Positions 14,097-53,108 of a stretch of DNA of 64,000 nt are shown here, piece by piece (within the stretch, counting starts at the first letter, position 1; each line of letters begins with the position of its first letter). The stretch covers positions 1 to 64,000 of the IMG/VR virus record IMGVR_UViG_3300024054_000269; one strand, 5' to 3'. Origin of the DNA: a virus. The notes beneath the pieces are model-generated. The model was not told where the DNA came from. It ran no database searches and was given only the letters and a program-made list of their open reading frames with translations. Made by a program: the position numbers and the translations under genes.

Positions 14097-14363
14097 ATGC
14101 CTAGAAATTTACGATGGACAATTGAGAATGGATTAACAAATCAAATATATAGATTATATGTTAATGATACTCAGACGCATTCTATTCAAAGAATTGTAAA
14201 TGGTATTTTTGCAGCAATTAGGGTTCAATCTACATCATATCAGATTTGTAACAGCCATAAAACAATTGACGAGGCGCTTGTCTGGGCTGAAAATGATATA
14301 ACATCTGGCGATTATTTTGAATGGGCTAACAACGAAATTGTTGAAGAAATTATAAATTCGTAA
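14097..14363 (+). CDS. Small hypothetical accessory protein
   Basis: 88-aa ORF ending EEIINS. Confidence 0.6.
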   Translation: MPRNLRWTIENGLTNQIYRLYVNDTQTHSIQRIVNGIFAAIRVQSTSYQICNSHKTIDEALVWAENDITSGDYFEWANNEIVEEIINS

Positions 14364-15774: not shown

Positions 15775-16022
15775 ATCCTGAAAAGCGGGTCGTTTTCCGC
15801 AAAATTCCAAACGGTCCCAAATTAAACCCGCTGACTTGGATGGAATGGCCTGAGAATAAATCTGGTATCATTGCCGAATGTTGTTGTATATTCGGTCATT
15901 GCGGCACGTTGAGATCCCAAAACCATAATGTTGATAATGAAGGAAATGTTATGCCTTCATATGTTTGTCCAGTTCCCGGCTGTTCATTCCATGATTTTAT
16001 AAAACTTGATAGCTGGAAGTAA
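15771..16022 (+). CDS. Small Cys/His-rich protein, possibly DUF6527-like
   Basis: CCCIFGH ... HNVDNEGNVMPSYVCPVPGCSFHDFI; family resemblance from memory only. Confidence 0.45.
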   Translation: MNPEKRVVFRKIPNGPKLNPLTWMEWPENKSGIIAECCCIFGHCGTLRSQNHNVDNEGNVMPSYVCPVPGCSFHDFIKLDSWK

Positions 16023-16335
16023 CGTATACATGATTAAACCTGGTGTTCCAGCTGAAATTAAAATTGATTGTTATAGTATTAATTATGTAAAACACTTTAA
16101 TCAACCAGGGCTAGGAAGTTATGTTAGGGTAGTCTTGCCAGAAGTCACAAAAATTGGCGTGGTTGTTGGGTATGAAGATTCGTTCTTAAAAATTAAATTT
16201 ATATGTAATGCTTCACAAGATAACCACCGATCAAAGTATACAGATGATGAATATTATGTTCCGATTGATCTTATAACAGAATGTGAAGGTATTGATGCTG
16301 ATTTAATTGCCGTATCTGAGGTTGTAGAAGGTTAA
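16006..16335 (+). CDS. Small hypothetical accessory protein
   Basis: ORF ending SEVVEG; start probably ATG 16030. Confidence 0.55.
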   Translation: MIAGSNVYMIKPGVPAEIKIDCYSINYVKHFNQPGLGSYVRVVLPEVTKIGVVVGYEDSFLKIKFICNASQDNHRSKYTDDEYYVPIDLITECEGIDADLIAVSEVVEG

Positions 16336-18839: not shown

Positions 18840-19018
18840 ATGAATTCTGTAATCATCCAATAAGACACATAAACTGTTACTGTTATTAATCTATAATCAT
18901 CAAAAAATTTTAAATTCTGTAATCATCAAATTTTAACAGAAAATGTACTACTAAATAGTATTGGAATTAGATTGTAAATAAAATTTAATTGGTTGATTTG
19001 GGTGATTACAGAATTCAT
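18840..19018. repeat. 21-bp imperfect inverted repeat with internal direct copy
   Basis: ATGAATTCTGTAATCATCCAA (18840-18860) vs reverse complement of 18998-19018 (20/21); AATTCTGTAATCATC repeated at 18913-18927. Confidence 0.8.
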
Positions 19019-20671
19019 AGAATGTTAATCACCCAGTATAGTCATAAAATGGAAGCTCAAACATGTGTTGGTTGTTTTGTTGAAAAACCACTATCTGATT
19101 ATTTCAATAATGCAATTAAGAAAAATGGTAAAGATTCAAAATGCAAAGTATGTAGAAAATTAAGAAACAAAGAATGGTCAAAAGATAATGAAGAAAAATG
19201 CAAGTCAATACGGAAAGCATATTATGAAAAAACTTATTGGGATAATAGAGAAAAACGAAAAATAAGATATCAACTTGAACATGATAAAATATTAGAACAA
19301 AAACGTGAGTATGTGTCAAGAACAAGAGAAGAAAGGAAGAAATATCTAAAAGACTATAGAAATAGAAATAAAGATGAACTACAAATTCTCAGTAAATTGA
19401 ATAAACGATTCATAATTGATGGGGTATTGGATTTACTTGGTCCAATATGCATTGATTGTGGTGAATTGAACAGGCATTTTTTGACAGTTGACCATAAATT
19501 GAACAATGGGAACGAAGAGAGACACCTGAGCAGTATTGGATGGAAAAGGAGAATATTAAATGGTCAATCAAATAAAGATGATTATCAAATTTTATGTTTT
19601 AATTGCAATTTAGGTAAATATAGATTAAACCCAACAAACCATCAAAAAGGTAGACAAATTATTGGTGAATTAATACTATGTCCGAAATGTTTGTTTGAAA
19701 AAGATCGATCAGAATTTTCCAATGATTTATCTAAGAACAGATCTTGTTTTGAATGTCAGCGATTTATGGACACTTTTGTTAAAGTTAAAACAATAAATTT
19801 TGTTGGAGGTAAATGTGCATGTTGTGGAATGTCAGAACCACATAAATTAACAATTGATCATATTAAAGGTGATGGATGGTATAGAAGAAAATTTTTGAGT
19901 GAAGGTTCTGGCGTTGATTTTTATAAAAAAATCTTGAACCATACTATAGATTCTAAAGGTTTTCAAATCTTGTGTTGGAATTGCAATATGAGTAAACACA
20001 TAAATAATGGTGTTTGTTTGCACCAAATGCTATTTAAATCAGAAAAATTAAACAGAAATAGACCAACGCTGACCAAAAATAACAATAGCTCTGAAAATAA
20101 AGATTTTAATTTTATTAATATCACAATAATTAAGGGTTCTAACCTCCAGTCAAAGAAATTGTTCAAAGATTATCACTACAACAAATTCGGGCGCCCTCAA
20201 ACCGCTATCTATTCAGCCATTCTTGACGATAAAGTCATTGCAGCTGTCAAATTTTGTACGCCAGTTAGGTTAGAGGTTGCAACGACGCTTGGCTATGAAT
20301 ATAAAGATGTAATTGAGCTTGATCGATTTTGTATTCATCCTGAATATCAGAAAAAGAATTTTGCATCTTGGCTAATGTCGCGTGTGGTCAAACAGTTTAA
20401 AACTGACTTTCCTGACATCAAGGCTTTAGTTTCATTTGCTGATACTCGTTTTGGTCATGTTGGTACTATTTATAAGGCTTCAAATTGGAAGGAACTTGGT
20501 CAAACTTCACCAAGTTACGTCTACGTCGATCTTGATGGCAATGAAATAAACAAGAAAACTCTATATGGTTATGCAAAACGTAGAAACATGAAAGAACGTG
20601 AGTGTGCTGACCGGCTCGGTCTCAAGAAAGTGCCGACGCCGCCAAAAATCAAATATATTTACGAACTTTAA
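18989..20671 (+). CDS. Tandem HNH-like endonuclease domains fused to Mom-like GNAT domain
   Basis: CIDCG..LTVDH..N..ILCFNCN and CACCG..LTIDH..ILCWNCN; C-terminal IELDRF, SFADTRFGHVGTIYKASNW as in Mu Mom; likely start ATG 19049 (TATAGT 6 nt upstream). Confidence 0.75.
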   Translation: MVDLGDYRIHRMLITQYSHKMEAQTCVGCFVEKPLSDYFNNAIKKNGKDSKCKVCRKLRNKEWSKDNEEKCKSIRKAYYEKTYWDNREKRKIRYQLEHDKILEQKREYVSRTREERKKYLKDYRNRNKDELQILSKLNKRFIIDGVLDLLGPICIDCGELNRHFLTVDHKLNNGNEERHLSSIGWKRRILNGQSNKDDYQILCFNCNLGKYRLNPTNHQKGRQIIGELILCPKCLFEKDRSEFSNDLSKNRSCFECQRFMDTFVKVKTINFVGGKCACCGMSEPHKLTIDHIKGDGWYRRKFLSEGSGVDFYKKILNHTIDSKGFQILCWNCNMSKHINNGVCLHQMLFKSEKLNRNRPTLTKNNNSSENKDFNFINITIIKGSNLQSKKLFKDYHYNKFGRPQTAIYSAILDDKVIAAVKFCTPVRLEVATTLGYEYKDVIELDRFCIHPEYQKKNFASWLMSRVVKQFKTDFPDIKALVSFADTRFGHVGTIYKASNWKELGQTSPSYVYVDLDGNEINKKTLYGYAKRRNMKERECADRLGLKKVPTPPKIKYIYEL

Positions 20672-20952
20672 TGTATTATCACGTTATGGCTAAATTTGTT
20701 TATGTAGTTTATAAACCAGAACAGAGTTGGCTTGACATTCGAAAAGATGGTATAAATTTTAATGTTCTTGAAATGATTGCTGATTTTCCTGAATCTAGAC
20801 GTGATGAATTGATCAACAATCCTGAAAAATATTTGGACAGGGTCTTTGGTGATAGACTTATTTATTGGTCATTTATTCCTGATTTGAAATATAAAGAATA
20901 TGAAAAAACCCTAAATAACCTAAAAATTTGTAGTGAGATCTTAGAGGCGTAA
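20671..20952 (+). CDS. Small hypothetical protein
   Basis: 93 aa ending SEILEA. Confidence 0.55.
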   Translation: MYYHVMAKFVYVVYKPEQSWLDIRKDGINFNVLEMIADFPESRRDELINNPEKYLDRVFGDRLIYWSFIPDLKYKEYEKTLNNLKICSEILEA

Positions 20953-20953
20953 T

Positions 20954-21379
20954 ATGATTCATACTATAAATTTTCCAGTTTATATAGAAGATTGTGATCA
21001 GTTTTGGAAAAAAGTAACGGACGTGACAAACGTTCCCGAGTCTCTTCTTATCGATAAATTCCAAAAAGCGCTGGGAGATTTTATTATGTCAAATCCTAAT
21101 TTTGTGCCAGATTTAATGAAACCTACAGTAATAAATTTCGTTGACGCTAATGGATGTGAATGGAGTTCTGGTTATAAATTCTTTGACAAAGATGAAATTT
21201 CGTGCAGTGAGGTACTTGAAGAATCCCAACCTTGTTCTGCCATCGTTAAATCTTATGAAATTTTCATAAAGAAAAGATACGCAGTCATCCAAAGGGCCTT
21301 TAATTTACTAAAACTCAAACGAGACCCAAATTTGTATAGCCAACTAAATTTGGTTCAGATTATTTTTCATAGCATTTGA
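20954..21379 (+). CDS. Hypothetical protein
   Basis: 141-aa ORF converging on the CRISPR array. Confidence 0.55.
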   Translation: MIHTINFPVYIEDCDQFWKKVTDVTNVPESLLIDKFQKALGDFIMSNPNFVPDLMKPTVINFVDANGCEWSSGYKFFDKDEISCSEVLEESQPCSAIVKSYEIFIKKRYAVIQRAFNLLKLKRDPNLYSQLNLVQIIFHSI

Positions 21380-21401
21380 ACGCTTCGAAGTCATGCGTCT
21401 C

Positions 21402-21585
21402 GTTCCGGCTTTTTAGTTGCCGGACAAACTTTGATACCCCGTGAAGTCTCCGCCGTTCCACTTCTGGAGGTCGCGTTCCGGCTTTTGAGTTGCCGGACAA
21501 ACTTTGATACCTTGGCGTCGCCGAACGTTGGCTTCATGCCCTCCAACTCGTTCCGGCTTTTGAGTTGCCGGACAAACTTTGATAC
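21402..21585 (-). CRISPR. CRISPR array: 3 x 36-nt repeats, 2 full spacers (37 and 39 nt)
   Basis: Minus-strand repeat GTATCAAAGTTTGTCCGGCAACTCAAAAGCCGGAAC at 21550-21585, 21475-21510, 21402-21437 (last has one change); TCCGGC/GCCGGA hairpin at 3' end; could be 37 nt since a G follows each copy. Confidence 0.93.
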
Positions 21586-21591
21586 AATCAT

Positions 21592-23553
21592 TCACGATGA
21601 AAGCGTTTCTAGTGCTGTTTCGTTGGCGTTTTGCGAGATATTCTTATTTGATTTCGTATTAACATTCCTTTCTTGGTTTTTCAGTTGTTTTTCAGATGGT
21701 CCGTTAGGCTTGCGAGAAACTCCTGGGTTTGGAGAACCATTTGATTGCTCGCAACGTTTCAACAAAATATGGCAGGCATTTTCATCTTGATCCCAATATT
21801 TTTCACAGTTTGAGCATTGGAGAACCAAAATTTCTTGATTTTTCCATTTATTAATGTGTCCGCACAAATGACATTCCCTGGTTGTATTCTCTGGATCAAC
21901 CTTTATAATATTTGGTTTACCAAAAGCTTGAATTAACTCTAAACGAAGCTCACCAGGTGATCCAATTGACATAATGCAATGCGTATAATCTTTCGGGTTT
22001 TCATTCTCTGGGGTCGAGTTTTTTATAAATTTTCTAAGATCCATATCCTCAACAACTAATGTTTTATATCTTTGTGATAAATTAGAAGCTATGTTTCTGT
22101 ACAAATGTTGACGATTCGATATTGTCTTTTTGCGTTGATCGGCTGCCCATTGAATCAAATGCCGGTCTTTACGGCGCCAAAGTTCTAAATAAAACAACAG
22201 TTGAGTGGCTTGGTCTTTAATCCCAGCCAAATTCGCCCACGTAAATATTTCGTCCTTTGTCGCAAATAAATCTAATTTAGACGAAAATCGATAATTTTTC
22301 CAATCAGAACAAATTTTAAAAATAAGATCTTTGTCTGATTCAGTTAACCATCGATTAACAATCGAGGCTAATTTGCCATGCATTCTCCACTGCGAGATAT
22401 TTAACGTTGCTTCTGGCATCCAATTTGGCAAACCTGAAAGTTTAGATTTAATGGCTTCTGACAAAATTGATAAAGCAACATTAAAAAATTCATCTGAGTA
22501 ACCAATTAATTTAGACGAATGCTCTAAAGCCGTTTGAATGTGATTAGGAACTAAAATTTCTTGCTTGAACCCATCATTTCCAACCACGAATCCGACTCTT
22601 ATACCATCAGGACGAACACGCCAACCAAGATCGAACGCTATTGCACCGCTAGTTGGCCTGACTTTTACGAATTCATTTGATTCGAGTGTTAGTTGTAGTT
22701 CAAATTCAGTATGAAGACCAATTCTACGGGTTGAAATCCAAGCCCAAGTAATGATTGCATCATCTGGCAATTTTCTATGCAAAGTTATTGGAAATTCGGC
22801 CCAAATTGGATTTCGTGACTTGTCTGAACCAACTCGAATTCTGACTTTTGACCTTGATAAAGGCGGCCTTACTTTTTGCTTACCATTTTTAATAAAATAA
22901 GCCTCAGGCGAAACCGGGTTGATCTGAATCATAGTTGATTTTTGATCAAAAATATCTTTTACGGTCGGTTTGTTTTGTAGCTGAACACCAATACGACCAT
23001 TTCCATCCCAACGGTGAAATTTTTGATCAGCTTGAGATGACTTGGAAGATTCTACCGCCTTTTCAATTAAGAGATAAGTTCCAAAATAAACTCCACATTT
23101 TGATCTAGCCAATTTAACTTTCTCAAGCATATCAGAAGTCAGTTTTTTATCGGCAGCTTCCAAAACTTCATTTGAATTTGCTTCATCACGTGCTTGTTTA
23201 AGTGACTCGTAAACTTGTTTCTTTTCGGCTTTCAAGTCGGAAATATGCTTTTGTAGTTCAAGATTTGAAACGCGTTTTCGAACTGATTTTCTAATTGACC
23301 TAAGTTCATCAATTGCTTTATCAAGCCTTTCTGAAACGTCTTTATATTTAACTTCAAATTCGGCTAAGTTTGGACACAATGAAGAACGCACAGTACGATA
23401 GGCTGAGCGTCTTTCTTGTTCTATTTGAACAAGATCGTTGTAATATTTATGTGCAAGTTTTAATTGCTCCCAAACAATTTGGGCATTTGAGGTTGGGCGT
23501 TTGCAACTAAATGACCAGACTCGGACTGGCAAATCTGACATTCTACGACGCAT
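21592..23553 (-). CDS. cas12m: Type V CRISPR effector, Cas12m (V-U1/C2c4)-like, TnpB-derived; RuvC triad appears intact
   Basis: LAHKYYNDLVQIE, FHRWDGNGRIGVQLQ, VRIRVGS..PIWAEFPITLHRKLP resemble V-U1 proteins; RuvC-I AFD308LGWR, RuvC-II VVE502DM, CxxC..CxxC zinc finger, RuvC-III QD590ENA; array 6 nt downstream. Confidence 0.82.
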   Translation of the reverse strand: MRRRMSDLPVRVWSFSCKRPTSNAQIVWEQLKLAHKYYNDLVQIEQERRSAYRTVRSSLCPNLAEFEVKYKDVSERLDKAIDELRSIRKSVRKRVSNLELQKHISDLKAEKKQVYESLKQARDEANSNEVLEAADKKLTSDMLEKVKLARSKCGVYFGTYLLIEKAVESSKSSQADQKFHRWDGNGRIGVQLQNKPTVKDIFDQKSTMIQINPVSPEAYFIKNGKQKVRPPLSRSKVRIRVGSDKSRNPIWAEFPITLHRKLPDDAIITWAWISTRRIGLHTEFELQLTLESNEFVKVRPTSGAIAFDLGWRVRPDGIRVGFVVGNDGFKQEILVPNHIQTALEHSSKLIGYSDEFFNVALSILSEAIKSKLSGLPNWMPEATLNISQWRMHGKLASIVNRWLTESDKDLIFKICSDWKNYRFSSKLDLFATKDEIFTWANLAGIKDQATQLLFYLELWRRKDRHLIQWAADQRKKTISNRQHLYRNIASNLSQRYKTLVVEDMDLRKFIKNSTPENENPKDYTHCIMSIGSPGELRLELIQAFGKPNIIKVDPENTTRECHLCGHINKWKNQEILVLQCSNCEKYWDQDENACHILLKRCEQSNGSPNPGVSRKPNGPSEKQLKNQERNVNTKSNKNISQNANETALETLSS

Positions 23554-23558
23554 TTAAC

Positions 23559-23566
23559 AAATTACA
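23559..23566 (-). promoter_or_regulatory. TG-TAATTT -10 box 5 nt upstream of the cas ATG (leaderless)
   Basis: Same TAnnnT-N5-ATG geometry as many other genes here. Confidence 0.55.
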
Positions 23567-23596
23567 TTAGGGTCAAATAAATTTACAATTTTAGTA

Positions 23597-24289
23597 TTGT
23601 TGAACATGACAGTCATAGCTGTAGTCAATAAATCAAAACGTGTGACATCGTCGGAAATTAAACGTATGGTAAATGCCTGTAATATTCAAGTCAAACGAGA
23701 CGTTGCACCAATTTGGGATGCCACCCCATGGTCGGTTAAATACTACGAAAATAAATTACCAAAAAATTCAATATCAATAGTAATATTTGACAATGCCGAT
23801 GAAGCTGACACTTTAGGATATCATAGTGAAACGCCAGATGGTAAACGATATGGACGTGTATTTGTGAATCCAATATTGAGATCGGGCGGTGATATATTAT
23901 CTAAACCAAACAGCGTGTCAGTAACATTGTCGCATGAAGTGTTGGAAGCATTTATAGACCCAGATATCAATTTATGGGCTGAGGATGACAAAGGACGAAT
24001 GTGGGCGTATGAAATTTGCGACCCAGTCGAAGCAACATCATACCGTATAGCTAACGTAGCCGTTTCAAATTTTGTAACGCGTTTGTGGTTTGACTCTGAA
24101 AATCAGCCAGGATCAAAATTTGATTATTTACAGCTTACAAAGCGAGCTTTCCAGGTTCTACCAGATGGTTATGCAGTATGCCGCGCAGGAAATCAAAAAG
24201 AACAAATTGTTTGGGGCAAAAAATATCCAAAATATAAAAAATTAGCAAAACGCCACCCAGCAGCCAGAACAGCACAACGTCATTTTTGA
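23597..24289 (+). CDS. Putative zincin-like metalloprotein
   Basis: LGYH, SHEVLE (HExxE), YEICDPVE; probable start ATG 23606. Confidence 0.5.
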   Translation: MLNMTVIAVVNKSKRVTSSEIKRMVNACNIQVKRDVAPIWDATPWSVKYYENKLPKNSISIVIFDNADEADTLGYHSETPDGKRYGRVFVNPILRSGGDILSKPNSVSVTLSHEVLEAFIDPDINLWAEDDKGRMWAYEICDPVEATSYRIANVAVSNFVTRLWFDSENQPGSKFDYLQLTKRAFQVLPDGYAVCRAGNQKEQIVWGKKYPKYKKLAKRHPAARTAQRHF

Positions 24290-24295
24290 ATTTTT

Positions 24296-24832
24296 TTGAT
24301 AGATATAAATATGTTAAGCAAAATTGCGAACAAGATTGCGAACAAAATAGCACAAGATCATACAAAAAGCGACTTAAAAGATCTAATCACTAAGATCGTT
24401 TCGTTCGGTTACAAACCGATTATTGGGTTGATGGAACTTGGAGGCGGAAGTGTGTATGATGTTTGGGCTTTGTCAAAAAATCCAGACGCTTGGGAACCGT
24501 ATAAGGGCAACAGATACGTTAAAAACTCAGAAAGTTACGTTATTGGATATGAATATAATGATGAATTGACTTCACAAAATATGGCTGAGGAGATGATTTA
24601 CGAAGAAACTAGCCAAGATTGGCTTCTAGAAGGTGAAAAATCAAAAGAAGTGAATACTGAGAAGTATAGATTGATACCCATTGGTAATTTAATCTCCAGA
24701 ATTGAAGGGCATCCAGGTACTTTAGAAAGAATAAAAGACATACTGTCAGCAGTCGATCCAGAATTAAGTCAAACTGCGGAAGTTTTGGAAAAAGATATTG
24801 AATATTGGTCTGAAATCAGACTAGACAAGTAG
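24296..24832 (+). CDS. Hypothetical protein with N-terminal KIANKIANKIA repeat
   Basis: 178-aa ORF; 12-nt tandem repeat near start. Confidence 0.6.
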   Translation: MIDINMLSKIANKIANKIAQDHTKSDLKDLITKIVSFGYKPIIGLMELGGGSVYDVWALSKNPDAWEPYKGNRYVKNSESYVIGYEYNDELTSQNMAEEMIYEETSQDWLLEGEKSKEVNTEKYRLIPIGNLISRIEGHPGTLERIKDILSAVDPELSQTAEVLEKDIEYWSEIRLDK

Positions 24833-24833
24833 A

Positions 24834-24841
24834 TGTAAGTT
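24834..24841 (+). promoter_or_regulatory. TG-TAAGTT -10 box directly upstream of the degenerate array
   Basis: TAAGTT at 24836-24841; N5 spacing puts +1 near 24847, inside the degenerate 5' end of repeat 1. Confidence 0.5.
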
Positions 24842-24842
24842 A

Positions 24843-25068
24843 ATTTTGAAATTTGTCTGGCAATTCAAAGGCCAGAACGATGAGCCAAGGCGTTAAAGCT
24901 TGTTCGGTAGCCAAAAAACCGGAACACTTGTGCCCGTTTCTATCAAAGTTTGTTCGGTAACTCAAAAACCGGAACTACTGAGTACAAGTCATAAACCTAT
25001 CCGGTGGTTCAAAAACCGGAGCCACTTGTAGATGATTTAAGCTTGTCTAGTAGCTAAAAAACTAGAAC
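24843..25068 (+). CRISPR. Degenerate mini-spacer CRISPR-like array: five variant copies of the Cas12m-array repeat, 10-14 nt apart
   Basis: 36-nt units at 24843, 24890, 24940, 24987, 25033; unit 3 CTATCAAAGTTTGTTCGGTAACTCAAAAACCGGAAC is 32/36 identical to the canonical repeat; 6-bp stem and 9-nt loop kept in all five. Confidence 0.88.
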
Positions 25069-25078
25069 CGAACCTGCA

Positions 25079-25570
25079 TCACGATTCAATCATTTCCTTT
25101 GATAATTGTTCATTAACAAATTTCAATAATTCTGATCTTACATATGCACCGGCTTTTCTTAATTTTGGTCTGTGGGTCAATCTTCGACGTCTTCTACATG
25201 CCGCGAAAAAATGACCAGAAGTTGGCTTTGTTGAATAATCAATATAGTATATGTTTTGGTTTTGGTTTTGGTTTTGGTCAGCGTGTATGTCAACGCGAAT
25301 TAATAATGAATATTTTGATATTAATATTTGTATCACGCCTAGTTTTTGATTTAATTTATATTTTATGATATGATTTCCGCATGTCTGATTCGGTATAACT
25401 GATAATGGGTGTTTGTCAATTGATTTTATGAATGCCTTTATTCCATTTTCATGTTTCATGTTTCTGATAAATGCCACGATTTTGATTTTGTAACAGTCAG
25501 CCTGATCTCTGTGCGTCGCCATCGTGGCTTCACGTGCGCGGAGGATTTGAGGCCCAAATTTATTGTACAT
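25079..25570 (-). CDS. Hypothetical protein
   Basis: 163 aa, QN repeat, ends KEMIES; TACCAT-N5-ATG. Confidence 0.55.
   Translation of the reverse strand: MYNKFGPQILRAREATMATHRDQADCYKIKIVAFIRNMKHENGIKAFIKSIDKHPLSVIPNQTCGNHIIKYKLNQKLGVIQILISKYSLLIRVDIHADQNQNQNQNIYYIDYSTKPTSGHFFAACRRRRRLTHRPKLRKAGAYVRSELLKFVNEQLSKEMIES
25253..25276. repeat. (GTTTTG)4 hexamer repeat encoding QNQNQNQN on minus strand
   Basis: Visible directly. Confidence 0.85.
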
Positions 25571-25591
25571 TGATGATGGTAAAATTTACAT

Positions 25592-26008
25592 ATGAATTAT
25601 TATAAAGCAAGACAACGTGAATCAGATCAACGTTGGGATTACACATGTTCAAATAAAAGAACAGGTTGTTATCCTGTTGGGTATTGCCATGAATGGAGAG
25701 ATTGGTCAGAAAATCTTAAAAACAGCAAAGAATATGAAAAATATTTACAATTTAAACATAAACATCACTCAGATGGTCATGCCACAGCTGAAGAATCTGA
25801 AGGTTGCTACAAGGAATATTTAATAGATCATAGATTAAATTTGGACATGAAATTTAATAACATGCAAAGAAAGTGTGAAGTCTGTCAGTCTTATACAGAA
25901 AGTTTTGCTGAAATCGATGGTATTTCGATTGTACTTTGTAATGAACATAGAAGTTTAGAAGAAGTAAAAAAACGGTTTCAAGTCCATGAAAGTTGGAGTT
26001 CATATTGA
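25592..26008 (+). CDS. Hypothetical Cys/His-containing protein
   Basis: 138 aa; CxxC near C-terminus. Confidence 0.6.
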   Translation: MNYYKARQRESDQRWDYTCSNKRTGCYPVGYCHEWRDWSENLKNSKEYEKYLQFKHKHHSDGHATAEESEGCYKEYLIDHRLNLDMKFNNMQRKCEVCQSYTESFAEIDGISIVLCNEHRSLEEVKKRFQVHESWSSY

Positions 26009-26328
26009 AAACTATTGAAGTTGAAGATACCGATTTTGTGATTGTTTATAAAGGACCAATGGTTGGTTTAACTAAATGTTATATGGGTAATAAACAATTA
26101 TCATTGATAACCGCTTTGAGCTTTAGTACATTAGGTAAAACTTTTTACCCAGAAGTAAAAATAGAATTTGCTGGTAACACTGGTAATTTCGACCCTGACA
26201 TCGTTGGTAACCAAATAATAAATAGAATTTTTAAATTTTATGATATATTTCATAAACTTCCAGGTTTTGAAATAGAGTCACCAATTTTGGATGATTATGT
26301 CAAAACTAAAGAAGTAGTCGATTCATGA
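25993..26328 (+). CDS. Small hypothetical protein
   Basis: 111 aa ending KEVVDS. Confidence 0.55.
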   Translation: MEFILKTIEVEDTDFVIVYKGPMVGLTKCYMGNKQLSLITALSFSTLGKTFYPEVKIEFAGNTGNFDPDIVGNQIINRIFKFYDIFHKLPGFEIESPILDDYVKTKEVVDS

Positions 26329-26727
26329 TTCTAGCAATTCTTTAGTATTTCTTATATCTCGTAATTCTTTCTCAATCCTCAATAATTGTTCCGGTTCAAG
26401 TGCTTCAACTAAACCATATTTTGGTTTGTATTCTTTTTTAAATTTATACGTTGGTGTTTTACCAAACATGTTCGTGACAAATTCTTCTGGTATGTTGTAT
26501 TTTCTTGCGAAATTTAGTGACTTTATTCTTAGTTCTTTATGCATTTGTCTTCTAAATATTTGATATTTTTGCTTTTTTGGAAGTTTGTTTATGCGTTTGA
26601 ACACATTCCAGTGGCTTCCGTAAAAATCAACAATAAAATCAGAATTGTCAGATATCCATATTACATTTTCAACTTTTAGGATAAGGTTCTTTGTAATTAT
26701 CTTCAAATATTTTTTAGTATCATCCAC
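26323..26727 (-). CDS. Small hypothetical protein
   Basis: 134 aa ending KELLES; TATTAT-N5-GTG. Confidence 0.6.
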   Translation of the reverse strand: MDDTKKYLKIITKNLILKVENVIWISDNSDFIVDFYGSHWNVFKRINKLPKKQKYQIFRRQMHKELRIKSLNFARKYNIPEEFVTNMFGKTPTYKFKKEYKPKYGLVEALEPEQLLRIEKELRDIRNTKELLES

Positions 26728-27260: not shown

Positions 27261-27704
27261 ATGGCTAATGAATTGATCAAAACAATAGGTAAGAGGGTGT
27301 CTAAAAATTTAGTTGAAAATGTAAAAATTCGGTTAACCGAGTTGGAAGTCGAGAAAACTAAATTGTTTAATATATTGGACGTATTTAGTAATTCTGGGCA
27401 ATCGTTAAAACGAAGAAAACCACGCTCTAAAGTTAGTGCACGAAGGAAGAAATCTCGTGTCAAACAAAACACACGAAAAACCAAAAAATTAACTAAAAAG
27501 GCGCACAAGCCTGGTCAAAACGGCATGTATAATAAAGTTGTGGCTTATTTAAAAGATAATCCTGGTTCATCTCTTCAAGACATATCAAAGGCCATGAAAG
27601 GCCATACATATGGTCAAGTAACCAGTTGTATAACATACTTAAAAAAGCGTAAGCGAATTAATATTGTTTCAAGAGCAAGGCCTTTTAAATATAATGCTAA
27701 TTGA
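27261..27704 (+). CDS. Basic protein with C-terminal winged-helix-like DNA-binding region
   Basis: K/R-rich linker, then KVVAYLKDNPGSSLQDISKAM..YGQVTSCITYLKK. Confidence 0.55.
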   Translation: MANELIKTIGKRVSKNLVENVKIRLTELEVEKTKLFNILDVFSNSGQSLKRRKPRSKVSARRKKSRVKQNTRKTKKLTKKAHKPGQNGMYNKVVAYLKDNPGSSLQDISKAMKGHTYGQVTSCITYLKKRKRINIVSRARPFKYNAN

Positions 27705-27975
27705 TATGTCACAATATCCTGAACACGACAAATTACGATTGATCAGGGATAAATCTCAAGCAATCGGTGAATTTTTATCGTTACTTGGTCAACACGGTTT
27801 AACATTATGTGAATTTCATGAAAAATATAATGAGTATTTACCAACTGGTATCACAATTCAAAAGTTGTTGGCCAAACATTTTGGTATTGATTTAGTCAAA
27901 CTAGATGATGAAAAACGTGATATGCTGGACGAATTACGTAGGCTTAATGATGCTGAAGATGTAATAGACAGCTGA
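27664..27975 (+). CDS. Small hypothetical protein
   Basis: Probable start ATG 27706 (MSQYPEHDKL); ends EDVIDS. Confidence 0.55.
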   Translation: MFQEQGLLNIMLIDMSQYPEHDKLRLIRDKSQAIGEFLSLLGQHGLTLCEFHEKYNEYLPTGITIQKLLAKHFGIDLVKLDDEKRDMLDELRRLNDAEDVIDS

Positions 27976-52045: not shown

Positions 52046-52142
52046 TTAAAACTATTTTAATTGTAAATACCAAGGCTATGGTATGGTTAGCCAGAGGCTG
52101 GTTAGTATCTGTCTGGCGATCCAAAGACCGGAGCAATGAATT

Positions 52143-53108
52143 ATGGACGAAGATTTTCTTGTTGAATTAGATAACAAATTAGCAAACATAGGTTATGAAA
52201 CTGTTTGGAAGGTGGAAATTGGCGGTCATTTGATTTGGCTGTCTCCTCCGTCTCAAACTGAAAATATGAAAATTAATGAGACTATGACAAATCAGTCTCT
52301 TGGTATTCATATTTTGTCTGAAGTTAAACGCACAACTCTTTCATATGTAATAGTTGGTCTTGATGATATAGATTTTCGTCAACATGATAAATATGGACCA
52401 TTCCCATCAAAGAAAGACGGGAAACCAACTTATCTGTCAAGAGACAGATATATGTATGCAAAATTAGCAAATTGGCCAGCTCAAATGATTGATGATATAT
52501 TTTCAGTTTTCACCGATCTTATGACAAGTTATGAAATAGAAAATTTGAAAAATATTGAATTTAAGAATAAAAAGAGTCAACTTGAGGAACTTGAGGAACT
52601 TGAGATAAGGATCCAGAACATCAGAGCTGAGCTTGGCATGCCAAGGTTGATTGAAGCAACTGATGAACCTACTAAACAAGAGAAAAAAGCTGCAGAAGAG
52701 GCAGAAAAAGAATTTGAAGAAGAGTTAGAGGCTGAGGTGCTTAAGGCGCAAGAAGAAGCGCAAGAAGATACCGAAGAGGCGCAAGAAGATACCGAAGAGG
52801 CGCAAGAAGAGGTTGTTGAGATAAAGCCCGTTGCCCCAAGAATTGTTCCGCCAACCCAAGATCACCCAAAGCCTAAAATAGAGGATGTTGATCCAAAGGT
52901 TGCTCAACGTGCTCGTGAATTAGCTCAAATTGAAAGTGCGCCAGTTAGAGTAAGCGATGGCAAACAAGTTTATGTTGGTATGCCATCTGTTTCGAATGAA
53001 ACAATTGAAAAGAAGTCACAAGATAAACTTGATCCAAAGAAGATAGTAATAGACGCTCCGCCGCAAGGCGGTAGAAACCCGCGTTTCCAACCACCACCTA
53101 AGATTTAA
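52143..53108 (+). CDS. Putative tail assembly chaperone
   Basis: Position between tube and tape measure; acidic low-complexity C-half. Confidence 0.5.
   Translation: MDEDFLVELDNKLANIGYETVWKVEIGGHLIWLSPPSQTENMKINETMTNQSLGIHILSEVKRTTLSYVIVGLDDIDFRQHDKYGPFPSKKDGKPTYLSRDRYMYAKLANWPAQMIDDIFSVFTDLMTSYEIENLKNIEFKNKKSQLEELEELEIRIQNIRAELGMPRLIEATDEPTKQEKKAAEEAEKEFEEELEAEVLKAQEEAQEDTEEAQEDTEEAQEEVVEIKPVAPRIVPPTQDHPKPKIEDVDPKVAQRARELAQIESAPVRVSDGKQVYVGMPSVSNETIEKKSQDKLDPKKIVIDAPPQGGRNPRFQPPPKI

What the first reader, a model, noticed from the sequence alone, without database searches (positions are those of the whole stretch)
21402..23553. Phage-borne stand-alone Cas12m-like effector with an apparently intact RuvC D-E-D triad
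Seen: V-U1-like motifs with D308, E502 and D590, a C4 zinc finger, no cas1/cas2/cas4 nearby and the array 6 nt after the stop. Known: characterised Cas12m proteins (MmCas12m, GoCas12m) have substituted RuvC residues and bind DNA without cutting. Inference: a nuclease-active member or a TnpB-to-Cas12m intermediate domesticated by a phage.
Basis: partly seen in the sequence, partly recalled or inferred. Interest (0 to 1): 0.8.

Follow-up and report, generated by a model that had tools for sequence, protein, structure and literature searches.

The report
Giant-phage Cas12m DNA-binding CRISPR effector
A giant lake-water phage carries a genuine member of the small CRISPR protein family Cas12m with its own guide arrays; its intact "cutting" residues are the normal state in this family and, in the relatives tested so far, do not make the protein cut DNA, so it most likely silences rival DNA by binding.

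Summary
ORF 21592-23553(-) encodes a 653-aa protein with D308/E502/D590, a CCCC zinc finger and a 3-repeat array 6 nt after its stop. No Cas1/Cas2/Cas4 was found in the 182-kb phage record.

It is a full-length type V-M Cas12m:
- Best solved-structure sequence match: a "DNA-binding protein Cas12m", E 5e-67.
- The AlphaFold model (pLDDT 91) superposes on Cas12m2 and GoCas12m at TM 0.71-0.80. Against Cas12f/TnpB the model-normalised TM is about 0.35.

- D-E-D is the majority state: 92 of 127 nearest cluster representatives, and 23 of 25 in the query's own clade.
- Bigelyte et al. 2024 tested four D-E-D orthologs and found no dsDNA nuclease activity. Purified D-E-D MsCas12m showed neither target nor collateral cleavage.
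- Omura et al. 2023 reported that converting HDD to DED in Cas12m2 did not restore cutting.
- It is not a TnpB intermediate.
- Phage-borne Cas12m is not new. 44 IMG/VR loci carry relatives, and a 2026 preprint describes a phage D-E-D Cas12m.

Most likely it is an RNA-guided DNA binder used against rival elements. A second compact array at 24850-25068 keeps the crRNA pseudoknot by compensatory changes. Two of its guides match a syntenic 512-kb phage. An earlier report of this scan covers that array.

This is a new member of a known kind. Nuclease activity remains possible (about 15%).

The parts
21592..23553 (-). cas12m gene, 653 aa (type V-M effector)
   Evidence: ORF. phmmer against PDB chains: Cas12m 23vw E 5e-67, UnCas12m4a 1e-27, GoCas12m 8pm4 5e-27, Cas12m2 3e-23. 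AF2 model pLDDT 91.4. Foldseek top hits are Cas12m2 and GoCas12m, TM 0.71-0.80.
22630..22632 (-). codon of D308 (RuvC-I)
   Evidence: Aligned with D of 23vw and the H of GoCas12m's HLGWR motif, numbered H322 in Bigelyte et al.. Invariant in the 12 closest homologs.
22048..22050 (-). codon of E502 (RuvC-II)
21784..21786 (-). codon of D590 (RuvC-III)
   Evidence: Nearly invariant across 127 representatives.
21805..21873 (-). TNB zinc ribbon, C561/C564/C580/C583
   Evidence: Pfam PF07282 Cas12f1-like TNB, E 7e-08. The cysteines are at least 90% conserved.
21595..21741 (-). disordered C-terminal tail (about residues 605-653), absent from most relatives
   Evidence: pLDDT below 50 for residues 608-653. 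The best solved relative is 577 aa.
21402..21585 (-). CRISPR array 1: three 36-nt repeats, spacers at 21511-21549 (39 nt) and 21438-21474 (37 nt), both 62-65% GC
   Evidence: Starts 6 nt after the cas12m stop, so it is probably co-transcribed (inference).
24850..25068 (+). Array 2: five degenerate repeat scaffolds of about 29 nt, spaced 46-50 nt apart, leaving guides of about 17-21 nt. It begins 17 nt after the stop of ORF 24296-24832.
   Evidence: The pseudoknot is kept by compensatory changes: 96.7% of cells paired, 6 of 10 pairs changed on both sides, 0 of 500 shuffles as high. U-G wobbles fit only the + strand RNA.
52098..52134 (+). possible solitary repeat unit just upstream of ORF 52143-53108; borderline
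   Evidence: 68% identity to the repeat core, about 0.85 such matches expected by chance (my own binomial estimate). Two compensatory pairs present.

Best explanation
This is a phage-encoded type V-M CRISPR-Cas12m system without an adaptation module.

Cas12m is made from the minus strand. Its pre-crRNA probably continues directly from the cas12m mRNA, since array 1 starts 6 nt after the stop. A second compact array is read from the opposite strand.

By analogy with characterised orthologs, Cas12m processes the repeats itself and keeps a pseudoknotted 5' handle of about 30 nt plus a guide of about 17-20 nt. It then recognises a PAM-flanked double-stranded DNA target, forms an R-loop and stays bound. 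Binding blocks transcription or replication of the target rather than cutting it.

The targets are most likely competing mobile elements, in particular related giant phages co-infecting the same host. The D-E-D triad is the ordinary state of this branch of the family. Its role here is probably metal-mediated holding of the displaced strand, or another non-cleaving function.

Shown: family membership, fold, triad, arrays, RNA fold conservation, lack of cas1/2/4 in the record, and matches to a related phage. Inferred: self-processing, binding without cleavage, and silencing of rivals.
For: Family and fold:
- Full-length sequence match to solved Cas12m proteins. The best is deposited as a 'DNA-binding protein' and itself carries D-E-D in the alignment.
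- The model superposes on Cas12m2 and GoCas12m at TM 0.71-0.80.

Triad:
- D-E-D in 92 of 127 nearest representatives.
- D-E-D in 23 of 25 members of the query's clade, support 0.987.

Published tests:
- D-E-D, H-D-D and N-D-D orthologs all bind dsDNA without dsDNA nuclease activity.
- Purified D-E-D MsCas12m shows no target or collateral cleavage.
- MsCas12m D274A still processes pre-crRNA (PMC11013384).
- HDD-to-DED conversion of Cas12m2 did not restore cutting (PMC10442227).

RNA:
- The repeat has two stems, at positions -29..-26 with -17..-14 and -23..-18 with -8..-3.
- This matches the pairing described for PmCas12m crRNA.
- It is kept by compensatory changes in nine copies.
- Array 2 units are about the size of a mature crRNA (33-nt handle plus 17-18-nt guide).

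Targets:
- Array 2 guide 2 matches 17 of 17 nt in G001, 15-31 nt upstream of the start codon of a 1253-aa glycosyltransferase gene.
- Guide 3 matches 15 of 17 nt elsewhere in G001.
- G001 is a complete 512,571-bp phage, syntenic with this one (41 ORFs at 23-58% aa identity) and without Cas12m.

Stability: the locus is letter-identical in lake-water metagenome contigs filed in 2018 and 2025, which is consistent with a fixed array.

Spread: 44 other IMG/VR loci encode relatives, most with an array directly downstream.
Against: - No protospacer was found for the two long, GC-rich spacers of array 1. The only lead is a marginal 22-nt match.
- The PAM is unknown. The flanks of the candidate protospacers (AGT, GAT) are not the TTN/YTN or C-rich PAMs published for other orthologs.
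- 16-nt matches in IMG/VR occur by chance (3, 7 and 17 hits). The rival-phage match is therefore meaningful only because G001 is a relative.
- The strict conservation of D-E-D in the clade argues that the site does something. No member of this particular clade has been assayed.
- Only about 40% of the phage genome is in hand, and the host is unknown, so self or host targets cannot be excluded.
Confidence: 0.7

Rival explanations
1. Same system, but this clade of D-E-D Cas12m is catalytically active. It cuts or nicks the target, or degrades the displaced strand.
For: D308, E502 and D590 are invariant in the 12 closest homologs, and 23 of 25 clade members keep D-E-D, which implies selection on the site. 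Omura et al. speculated that clades 3 and 4 might hydrolyse DNA. No member of this clade has been tested.
Against: In Bigelyte et al., none of the four D-E-D orthologs tested showed dsDNA nuclease activity. Purified MsCas12m also showed no RNA or collateral cleavage. Restoring DED in Cas12m2 did not restore cleavage. The closest solved relative carries D-E-D and is deposited as a DNA-binding protein. N/H substitutions arise repeatedly among relatives, so the family works without the triad.
Confidence: 0.15
2. It is a hard-wired RNA-guided transcription factor for the phage's own or the host's genes (like TldR or dCas-type regulators), not a weapon against rivals.
For: The arrays are small and did not vary across samples or years in the contigs compared. 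There is no adaptation module. Array 2 guides are short. The one exact match lies just upstream of a start codon.
Against: None of the guides matches anywhere else in the 182 kb in hand at up to 2-4 mismatches. The only good matches are in another phage that lacks Cas12m. However, about 60% of the genome and the host are unseen.
Confidence: 0.1
3. It is a decaying relic: a captured Cas12m locus with a shrinking array and drifting repeats, no longer functional.
For: There are only two spacers in array 1. The repeats in array 2 are degenerate. No targets were found for array 1.
Against: The ORF is intact and models at pLDDT 91. The repeat drift is compensatory in both stems, which is the signature of selection on the RNA fold. 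The gene's GC content equals the phage's. Similar compact degenerate arrays recur next to relatives.
Confidence: 0.04
4. It is an IS-associated TnpB, or a TnpB-to-Cas12 intermediate using an omega RNA.
For: There is a weak NCBIfam IS607_TnpB match on the C-terminal RuvC/TNB part.
Against: That match scores 24.6 bits against a cut-off of 350. TnpB structures match at E 0.15 by sequence and about TM 0.35 (model-normalised) by fold, on the core only. The protein has the Cas12m coiled-coil REC insertion (helices 24-152). The guides are CRISPR repeats, not a 3'-overlapping omega RNA. No family hit of any kind, transposase included, was found among the seven flanking ORFs from 20671 to 26727.
Confidence: 0.01

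Closest known systems
Cas12m of PDB entry 23vw ('CRISPR-associated DNA-binding protein Cas12m', 577 aa)
   Same: It is the best sequence match, E 5e-67 over residues 13-599. It has the same D-E-D residues (DLGWR / LEEF / WDQDYNA) and the same CxxC...CxxC ribbon.
   Different: The match is divergent (substantially lower score than the closest metagenomic homologs). The query is 76 aa longer, mostly through a disordered C-terminal tail. The source organism and paper of 23vw were not found.
D-E-D Cas12m orthologs of Bigelyte et al. 2024, e.g. MsCas12m (Meiothermus silvanus)
   Same: Type V-M, about 600 aa, D-E-D triad, single crRNA, array next to the gene and no cas1/2/4. They bind PAM-flanked dsDNA and do not cut.
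   Different: They are bacterial, not phage-borne.
MmCas12m/Cas12m2 (8hhl) and GoCas12m (8pm4)
   Same: The fold matches over the full length at TM 0.71-0.80. The crRNA architecture and array layout are the same.
   Different: They carry H-D-D instead of D-E-D. Sequence identity is 19-20% in the structural alignment.
MvCas12m of myxophage MV-1 (bioRxiv 10.64898/2026.09.14.751636)
   Same: It is a phage-encoded Cas12m with an intact triad (D305/E463/D555), an adjacent array, no cas1/2/4 and no protospacers found.
   Different: It comes from a different phage lineage and host and has a single array of eight spacers. It has not been assayed. Its authors claimed the first phage Cas12m, but IMG/VR holds at least 44 such loci.
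Cas12j (CasPhi) and Cas12l (CasLambda) of huge phages
   Same: They are compact type V effectors carried by huge phages with small arrays and no adaptation genes, thought to target competitors.
   Different: They belong to different Cas12 families (model-normalised TM 0.23-0.30) and are active nucleases.

Membership tests
Cas12m (type V-M, formerly V-U1) | Full-length sequence homology to characterised Cas12m proteins | tested here: met
   phmmer against PDB chains gives four Cas12m sequences at E 5e-67 to 3e-23, each covering both lobes.
Cas12m (type V-M, formerly V-U1) | Bilobed fold with WED, coiled-coil REC insertion, RuvC and TNB zinc ribbon | tested here: met
   AF2 model pLDDT 91.4, with long helices at residues 24-152. 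Foldseek TM 0.73/0.80 to 8hhl and 0.71/0.76 to 8pm4. PF07282 match.
Cas12m (type V-M, formerly V-U1) | RuvC triad positions occupied by one of the family's known combinations (clade 3/4: DED, NED, DND) | tested here: met
   D308/E502/D590. Clade definitions are quoted in PMC10442227.
Cas12m (type V-M, formerly V-U1) | Adjacent CRISPR array with about 36-nt repeats that fold into the crRNA pseudoknot handle; no tracrRNA | tested here: met
   The array starts 6 nt after the stop. Both stems show compensatory changes in nine copies, at the positions described for PmCas12m crRNA. Absence of a tracrRNA was not tested directly. U-G wobbles make array 2 repeat-sense rather than anti-repeat.
Cas12m (type V-M, formerly V-U1) | No adaptation genes in the locus | tested here: met
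   No Cas1, Cas2 or Cas4 Pfam match in the 182-kb record. The record is incomplete.
Cas12m (type V-M, formerly V-U1) | PAM-dependent dsDNA binding without cleavage; self-processing of pre-crRNA | not testable with these tools
   Known only from orthologs.
TnpB (IS200/IS605, IS607) | About 400-aa protein without a REC2 insertion that passes the family model cut-off | tested here: not met
   The protein is 653 aa. NF038280 scores 24.6 bits against a cut-off of 350. Model-normalised TM to TnpB structures is 0.33-0.36.
TnpB (IS200/IS605, IS607) | Transposon context (TnpA, IS ends) and an omega RNA overlapping the 3' end of the gene | tested here: not met
   The seven flanking ORFs from 20671 to 26727 have no family hit, transposase included. 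The 3' flank is a CRISPR array. There is no Rfam match.

The most novel reading that the evidence does not exclude
The phage-borne D-E-D clade that contains this protein is a catalytically active Cas12m, a nuclease or nickase. The phage would then use two guide classes with one effector: long spacers in array 1 and mature-size guides in the compact array 2, for cutting or silencing rival giant phages. That would overturn the current view that binding without cleavage is a family-wide property of Cas12m.
Probability: 0.12. Interest if true: 0.65.

Novelty: new member of a known kind. Interest (0 to 1): 0.33.

Why it matters
The report corrects an attractive but mistaken inference: an intact D-E-D triad is the rule in this branch of Cas12m, not a sign of a nuclease-active outlier. 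It adds a well-modelled, divergent member of the family (at most 43% identity to anything in the databases searched) from a giant lake-water phage. It also shows that Cas12m is widespread on viral contigs.

The open question it sharpens is why non-cutting Cas12m proteins keep D-E-D under selection. A phage clade with an invariant triad and fixed guides against an identifiable rival phage is a convenient natural system for testing that. Such compact binders also interest tool builders working on CRISPRi, base editing and epigenome editing.

Tried and rejected
1. Protospacer searches for array 1. Codon-degenerate patterns for both spacers found nothing in viral, genome or metagenome contigs. Exact 18-mers gave one chance hit (L088) and one 22-nt match in a 68% GC viral contig (L089). 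I estimate the latter at p about 0.03, too weak to claim. Its ORF has no annotation.

2. Self-targets. None was found for any guide in the 182 kb at up to 2-4 mismatches. One match of 2-3 mismatches in 17-20 nt, at 94989, lies inside an ORF and is about what chance allows.

3. Array 2 guide 1. It gave 17 scattered 16-mer hits with no extension. The 366-kb phage among them (G002) had no match to a marker protein conserved between this phage and G001, so this is chance.

4. ORF230 (23597-24289), divergent neighbour of cas12m, as an accessory gene. Homologs lie near Cas12m in 3 related loci. However, the family is a widespread phage protein, and none of the three other contigs examined has Cas12m nearby. 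Rejected.

5. Cas12m C-terminal tail as a carrier of the phage's shared C-terminal tag. It scores only 3.5 bits against at least 12.9 for true members. Not established.

6. Named-reference phylogeny. No reference Cas12m sequences were available as ids. The genome-contig scan returned only six MAG loci at 23-31% identity.

7. Source of PDB entries 23vw and 23vu. No paper was found.

8. Expression. No RNA holder was listed among the public runs.

9. Rfam: no match. tRNAs: none in the window.

10. The promoter/terminator scan was uninformative.

11. The first related-loci run, with the 28-sequence alignment, failed for lack of a conserved stretch.
Full report
**Observation**

The window is the first 64 kb of a 182,302-bp IMG/VR virus record that CheckV rates about 40% complete. 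That implies a giant phage. The record shares long collinear stretches with a complete 512,571-bp phage with terminal repeats.

On the minus strand, ORF 21592-23553 encodes 653 aa. It has the following features:
- D308 sits in AFDLGWR, E502 in LVVEDMDL and D590 in WDQDENA.
- Cysteines lie at 561, 564, 580 and 583.
- The stop codon is followed by six bases and then by three 36-nt repeats. These are separated by spacers of 39 and 37 nt.
- Cas1, Cas2 and Cas4 profiles find nothing in the whole record.

**What the protein is**

Pfam recognises only the TNB zinc ribbon, but the other evidence is decisive.
- Sequence: four solved Cas12m sequences match across both lobes. These are 23vw ("CRISPR-associated DNA-binding protein Cas12m", E 5e-67), UnCas12m4a (1e-27), GoCas12m 8pm4 (5e-27) and Cas12m2 8hhl (3e-23). 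TnpB and Cas12f reach only E 0.13-0.35, on the C-terminal core.
- Fold: an AlphaFold2 model built on 127 homologs has pLDDT 91.4 and pTM 0.86. It shows the long coiled-coil helices (residues 24-152) typical of the Cas12m REC insertion.
- Structure comparison: Foldseek puts Cas12m2 and GoCas12m first, at TM 0.73/0.80 and 0.71/0.76 over about 640 columns. Cas12f and TnpB follow at a model-normalised TM of about 0.33-0.36.
- TnpB model: the NCBIfam IS607 TnpB model scores 24.6 bits against a cut-off of 350.

So this is a bona fide type V-M effector, not a TnpB or an intermediate form.

**The D-E-D triad**

The family is large. There are 1,824 cluster representatives at E <= 1e-30, and the nearest is 43% identical.
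- Among the 127 best representatives, 92 have D-E-D, 12 N-E-D and 6 N-D-D.
- In a FastTree phylogeny of 164 sequences, the query sits in a 25-member clade with support 0.987. In that clade, 23 members have D-E-D.
- Of 32 viral homologs, 25 have D-E-D.

The literature agrees.
- Wu et al. 2022 defined clades 3 (DED, NED) and 4 (DED, DND, NED), as quoted by Omura et al. 2023. Omura et al. also report that converting HDD to DED in Cas12m2 did not restore cutting.
- Bigelyte et al. 2024 chose eight orthologs, four of them D-E-D. They concluded that D-E-D, H-D-D and N-D-D variants all bind dsDNA in a PAM-dependent way without dsDNA nuclease activity.
- In the same study, purified D-E-D MsCas12m cleaved neither target DNA or RNA nor collateral substrates. 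Its D274A mutant still processed pre-crRNA.
- The two nearest solved relatives also show D-E-D in the alignments, and one is named a DNA-binding protein.

The inference of a nuclease-active outlier loses its basis. Even so, the invariance of the triad in the 12 closest homologs says the site is under selection for something. No member of this clade has been assayed. I leave about 15% for cutting or nicking.

**Phage carriage**

- A pattern scan of IMG/VR returned 44 distinct loci encoding relatives at 24-37% identity. Most have an array directly downstream of the gene.
- The two nearest metagenomic homologs lie in phage-like contigs, with neighbours such as a RuvC resolvase, DUF3310, an M15 peptidase, SLT and HNH.
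- A landfill virome paper placed viral effectors with Cas12m/V-U1.
- A September 2026 preprint describes a myxophage Cas12m with D305/E463/D555, an adjacent array and no cas1/2/4.

A phage-borne, stand-alone D-E-D Cas12m is thus already a described situation.

**The guide RNAs**

The repeat contains two interleaved stems. Counted from the 3' end, positions -29..-26 pair with -17..-14, and -23..-18 pair with -8..-3. These are the same places as the pairings reported for PmCas12m crRNA.

A second set of five repeat-like units lies 1.3 kb upstream of cas12m on the other strand (24850-25068). It begins 17 nt after the stop of ORF 24296-24832.

Aligning all nine copies shows strong conservation of the fold:
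- 96.7% of cells are paired.
- 6 of 10 pairs show changes on both sides.
- None of 500 shuffles reaches the observed covariation.
- Sliding the partners destroys the signal.

U-G wobbles in three copies would be C-A mismatches on the other strand. The + strand RNA is therefore the functional one, and the units are handles, not anti-repeats.

The units recur every 46-50 nt. That leaves a 29-nt handle plus a guide of about 17-21 nt. This is about the size of the mature PmCas12m crRNA, in which the guide is cut after position 17-18.

Comparable compact or irregular arrays occur next to relatives:
- L002 has periods of 48-74.
- L013 has two 12-nt spacers.
- L091 has hairpin units with spacers of about 20 nt.

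An earlier report of this scan (e1-5809245) already covers array 2 and proposed rival-phage targeting. I tested that lead.

**Targets**

Array 2 guide 2 matches 17 of 17 nt in IMGVR_UViG_3300028654_000001 (G001). The site lies 15-31 nt upstream of the ATG of a 1253-aa glycosyltransferase gene. Guide 3 matches 15 of 17 nt elsewhere in the same genome, with both mismatches at the PAM-distal end.

Sixteen-mers hit IMG/VR by chance (3, 7 and 17 hits), so these matches alone prove little. What gives them weight is the nature of G001:
- 41 ORFs of this phage have homologs in G001 at 23-58% identity.
- Most of these lie in one collinear, inverted block.
- G001 has no Cas12m.
- By contrast, a 366-kb phage hit by guide 1 lacks the marker protein tested.

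By my estimate, an exact 17-mer from five guides falling in one pre-specified 0.5-Mb genome has probability of about 3e-4. I take the rival-phage reading as moderately supported.

The two long spacers of array 1 are 62-65% GC, whereas the phage is 36%. They found no convincing target. No guide matches the 182 kb in hand.

Contigs from lake-water metagenomes filed in 2018 and 2025 carry the locus without a single difference. The collapsed repeat contig has about three times the flanking depth, consistent with three repeat copies. This fits a fixed array without adaptation.

**Mechanism**

The mechanism I commit to, at confidence 0.7, has four steps:
1. cas12m and array 1 are transcribed together. 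Array 2 is transcribed behind the two divergent ORFs.
2. Cas12m trims the transcripts to a handle plus a guide of about 17-20 nt.
3. The complex binds PAM-flanked dsDNA and stays bound.
4. Binding silences promoters or blocks replication of competing phages.

Steps 1-3 are inferred from orthologs. The targets rest on the G001 matches.

The rivals are:
- an active nuclease or nickase (0.15);
- a hard-wired regulator of phage or host genes (0.10);
- a relic (0.04);
- a TnpB element (0.01).

**Verdict**

This is a new, divergent member of a known kind, and interest is modest. Its main value is as a natural system for asking why non-cutting Cas12m proteins keep D-E-D.

Noticed in passing
window 24850-25068 (+): A second, inverted compact array holds five degenerate Cas12m repeat handles. 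Both pseudoknot stems are kept by compensatory changes, and the guides are about 17-21 nt. Two guides match the related 512-kb phage G001. It is already the subject of earlier report e1-5809245.
   Followed up: partly
whole record G000; in the window e.g. 14097-14363, 16006-16335, 20671-20952, 25079-25570(-), 26323-26727(-), 27664-27975: 29 ORFs end in the motif [DE][ILVM][ILVM][DENS][SGAC]-COOH, against 0.24 expected from internal windows. The cas12m locus lies inside a cluster of such tagged small genes. The Cas12m disordered tail ends in ...ALETLSS, which resembles the tag only weakly (3.5 bits against at least 12.9).
   Followed up: partly
window 18989-20671 (+): A 560-aa fusion combines an HNH/endonuclease VII-like domain with a Mom-like DNA-modification (GNAT) domain. 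It lies 0.9 kb from the CRISPR array and is a likely anti-restriction DNA modification function.
   Followed up: no
window 52098-52134 (+): A possible solitary Cas12m repeat unit sits immediately upstream of the start of ORF 52143-53108. It is borderline by sequence but has two compensatory stem pairs.
   Followed up: partly
L002:6979-7868, L013:6805-8172, L091:8200-8380: Arrays next to phage Cas12m relatives are irregular. L002 has degenerate repeats with periods of 48-74 nt. L013 has a 12-nt spacer present twice. L091 has short hairpin units with spacers of about 20 nt. Compact or mixed-length guide arrays may be a general trait of phage V-M loci.
   Followed up: partly
window 21438-21549 (-): Both array 1 spacers are 62-65% GC in a 36% GC phage. 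Each reads as an open frame with GC-rich third codon positions, so they derive from high-GC DNA of unknown origin. Spacer 2 has a 22-nt match in a 68% GC viral contig (L089:10055-10076).
   Followed up: partly
window 23597-24289 (+): The ORF divergent from cas12m belongs to a family of at least 77 uncharacterised phage proteins (up to 55% identity). Members are often near lysis genes and are not specifically linked to Cas12m.
   Followed up: yes
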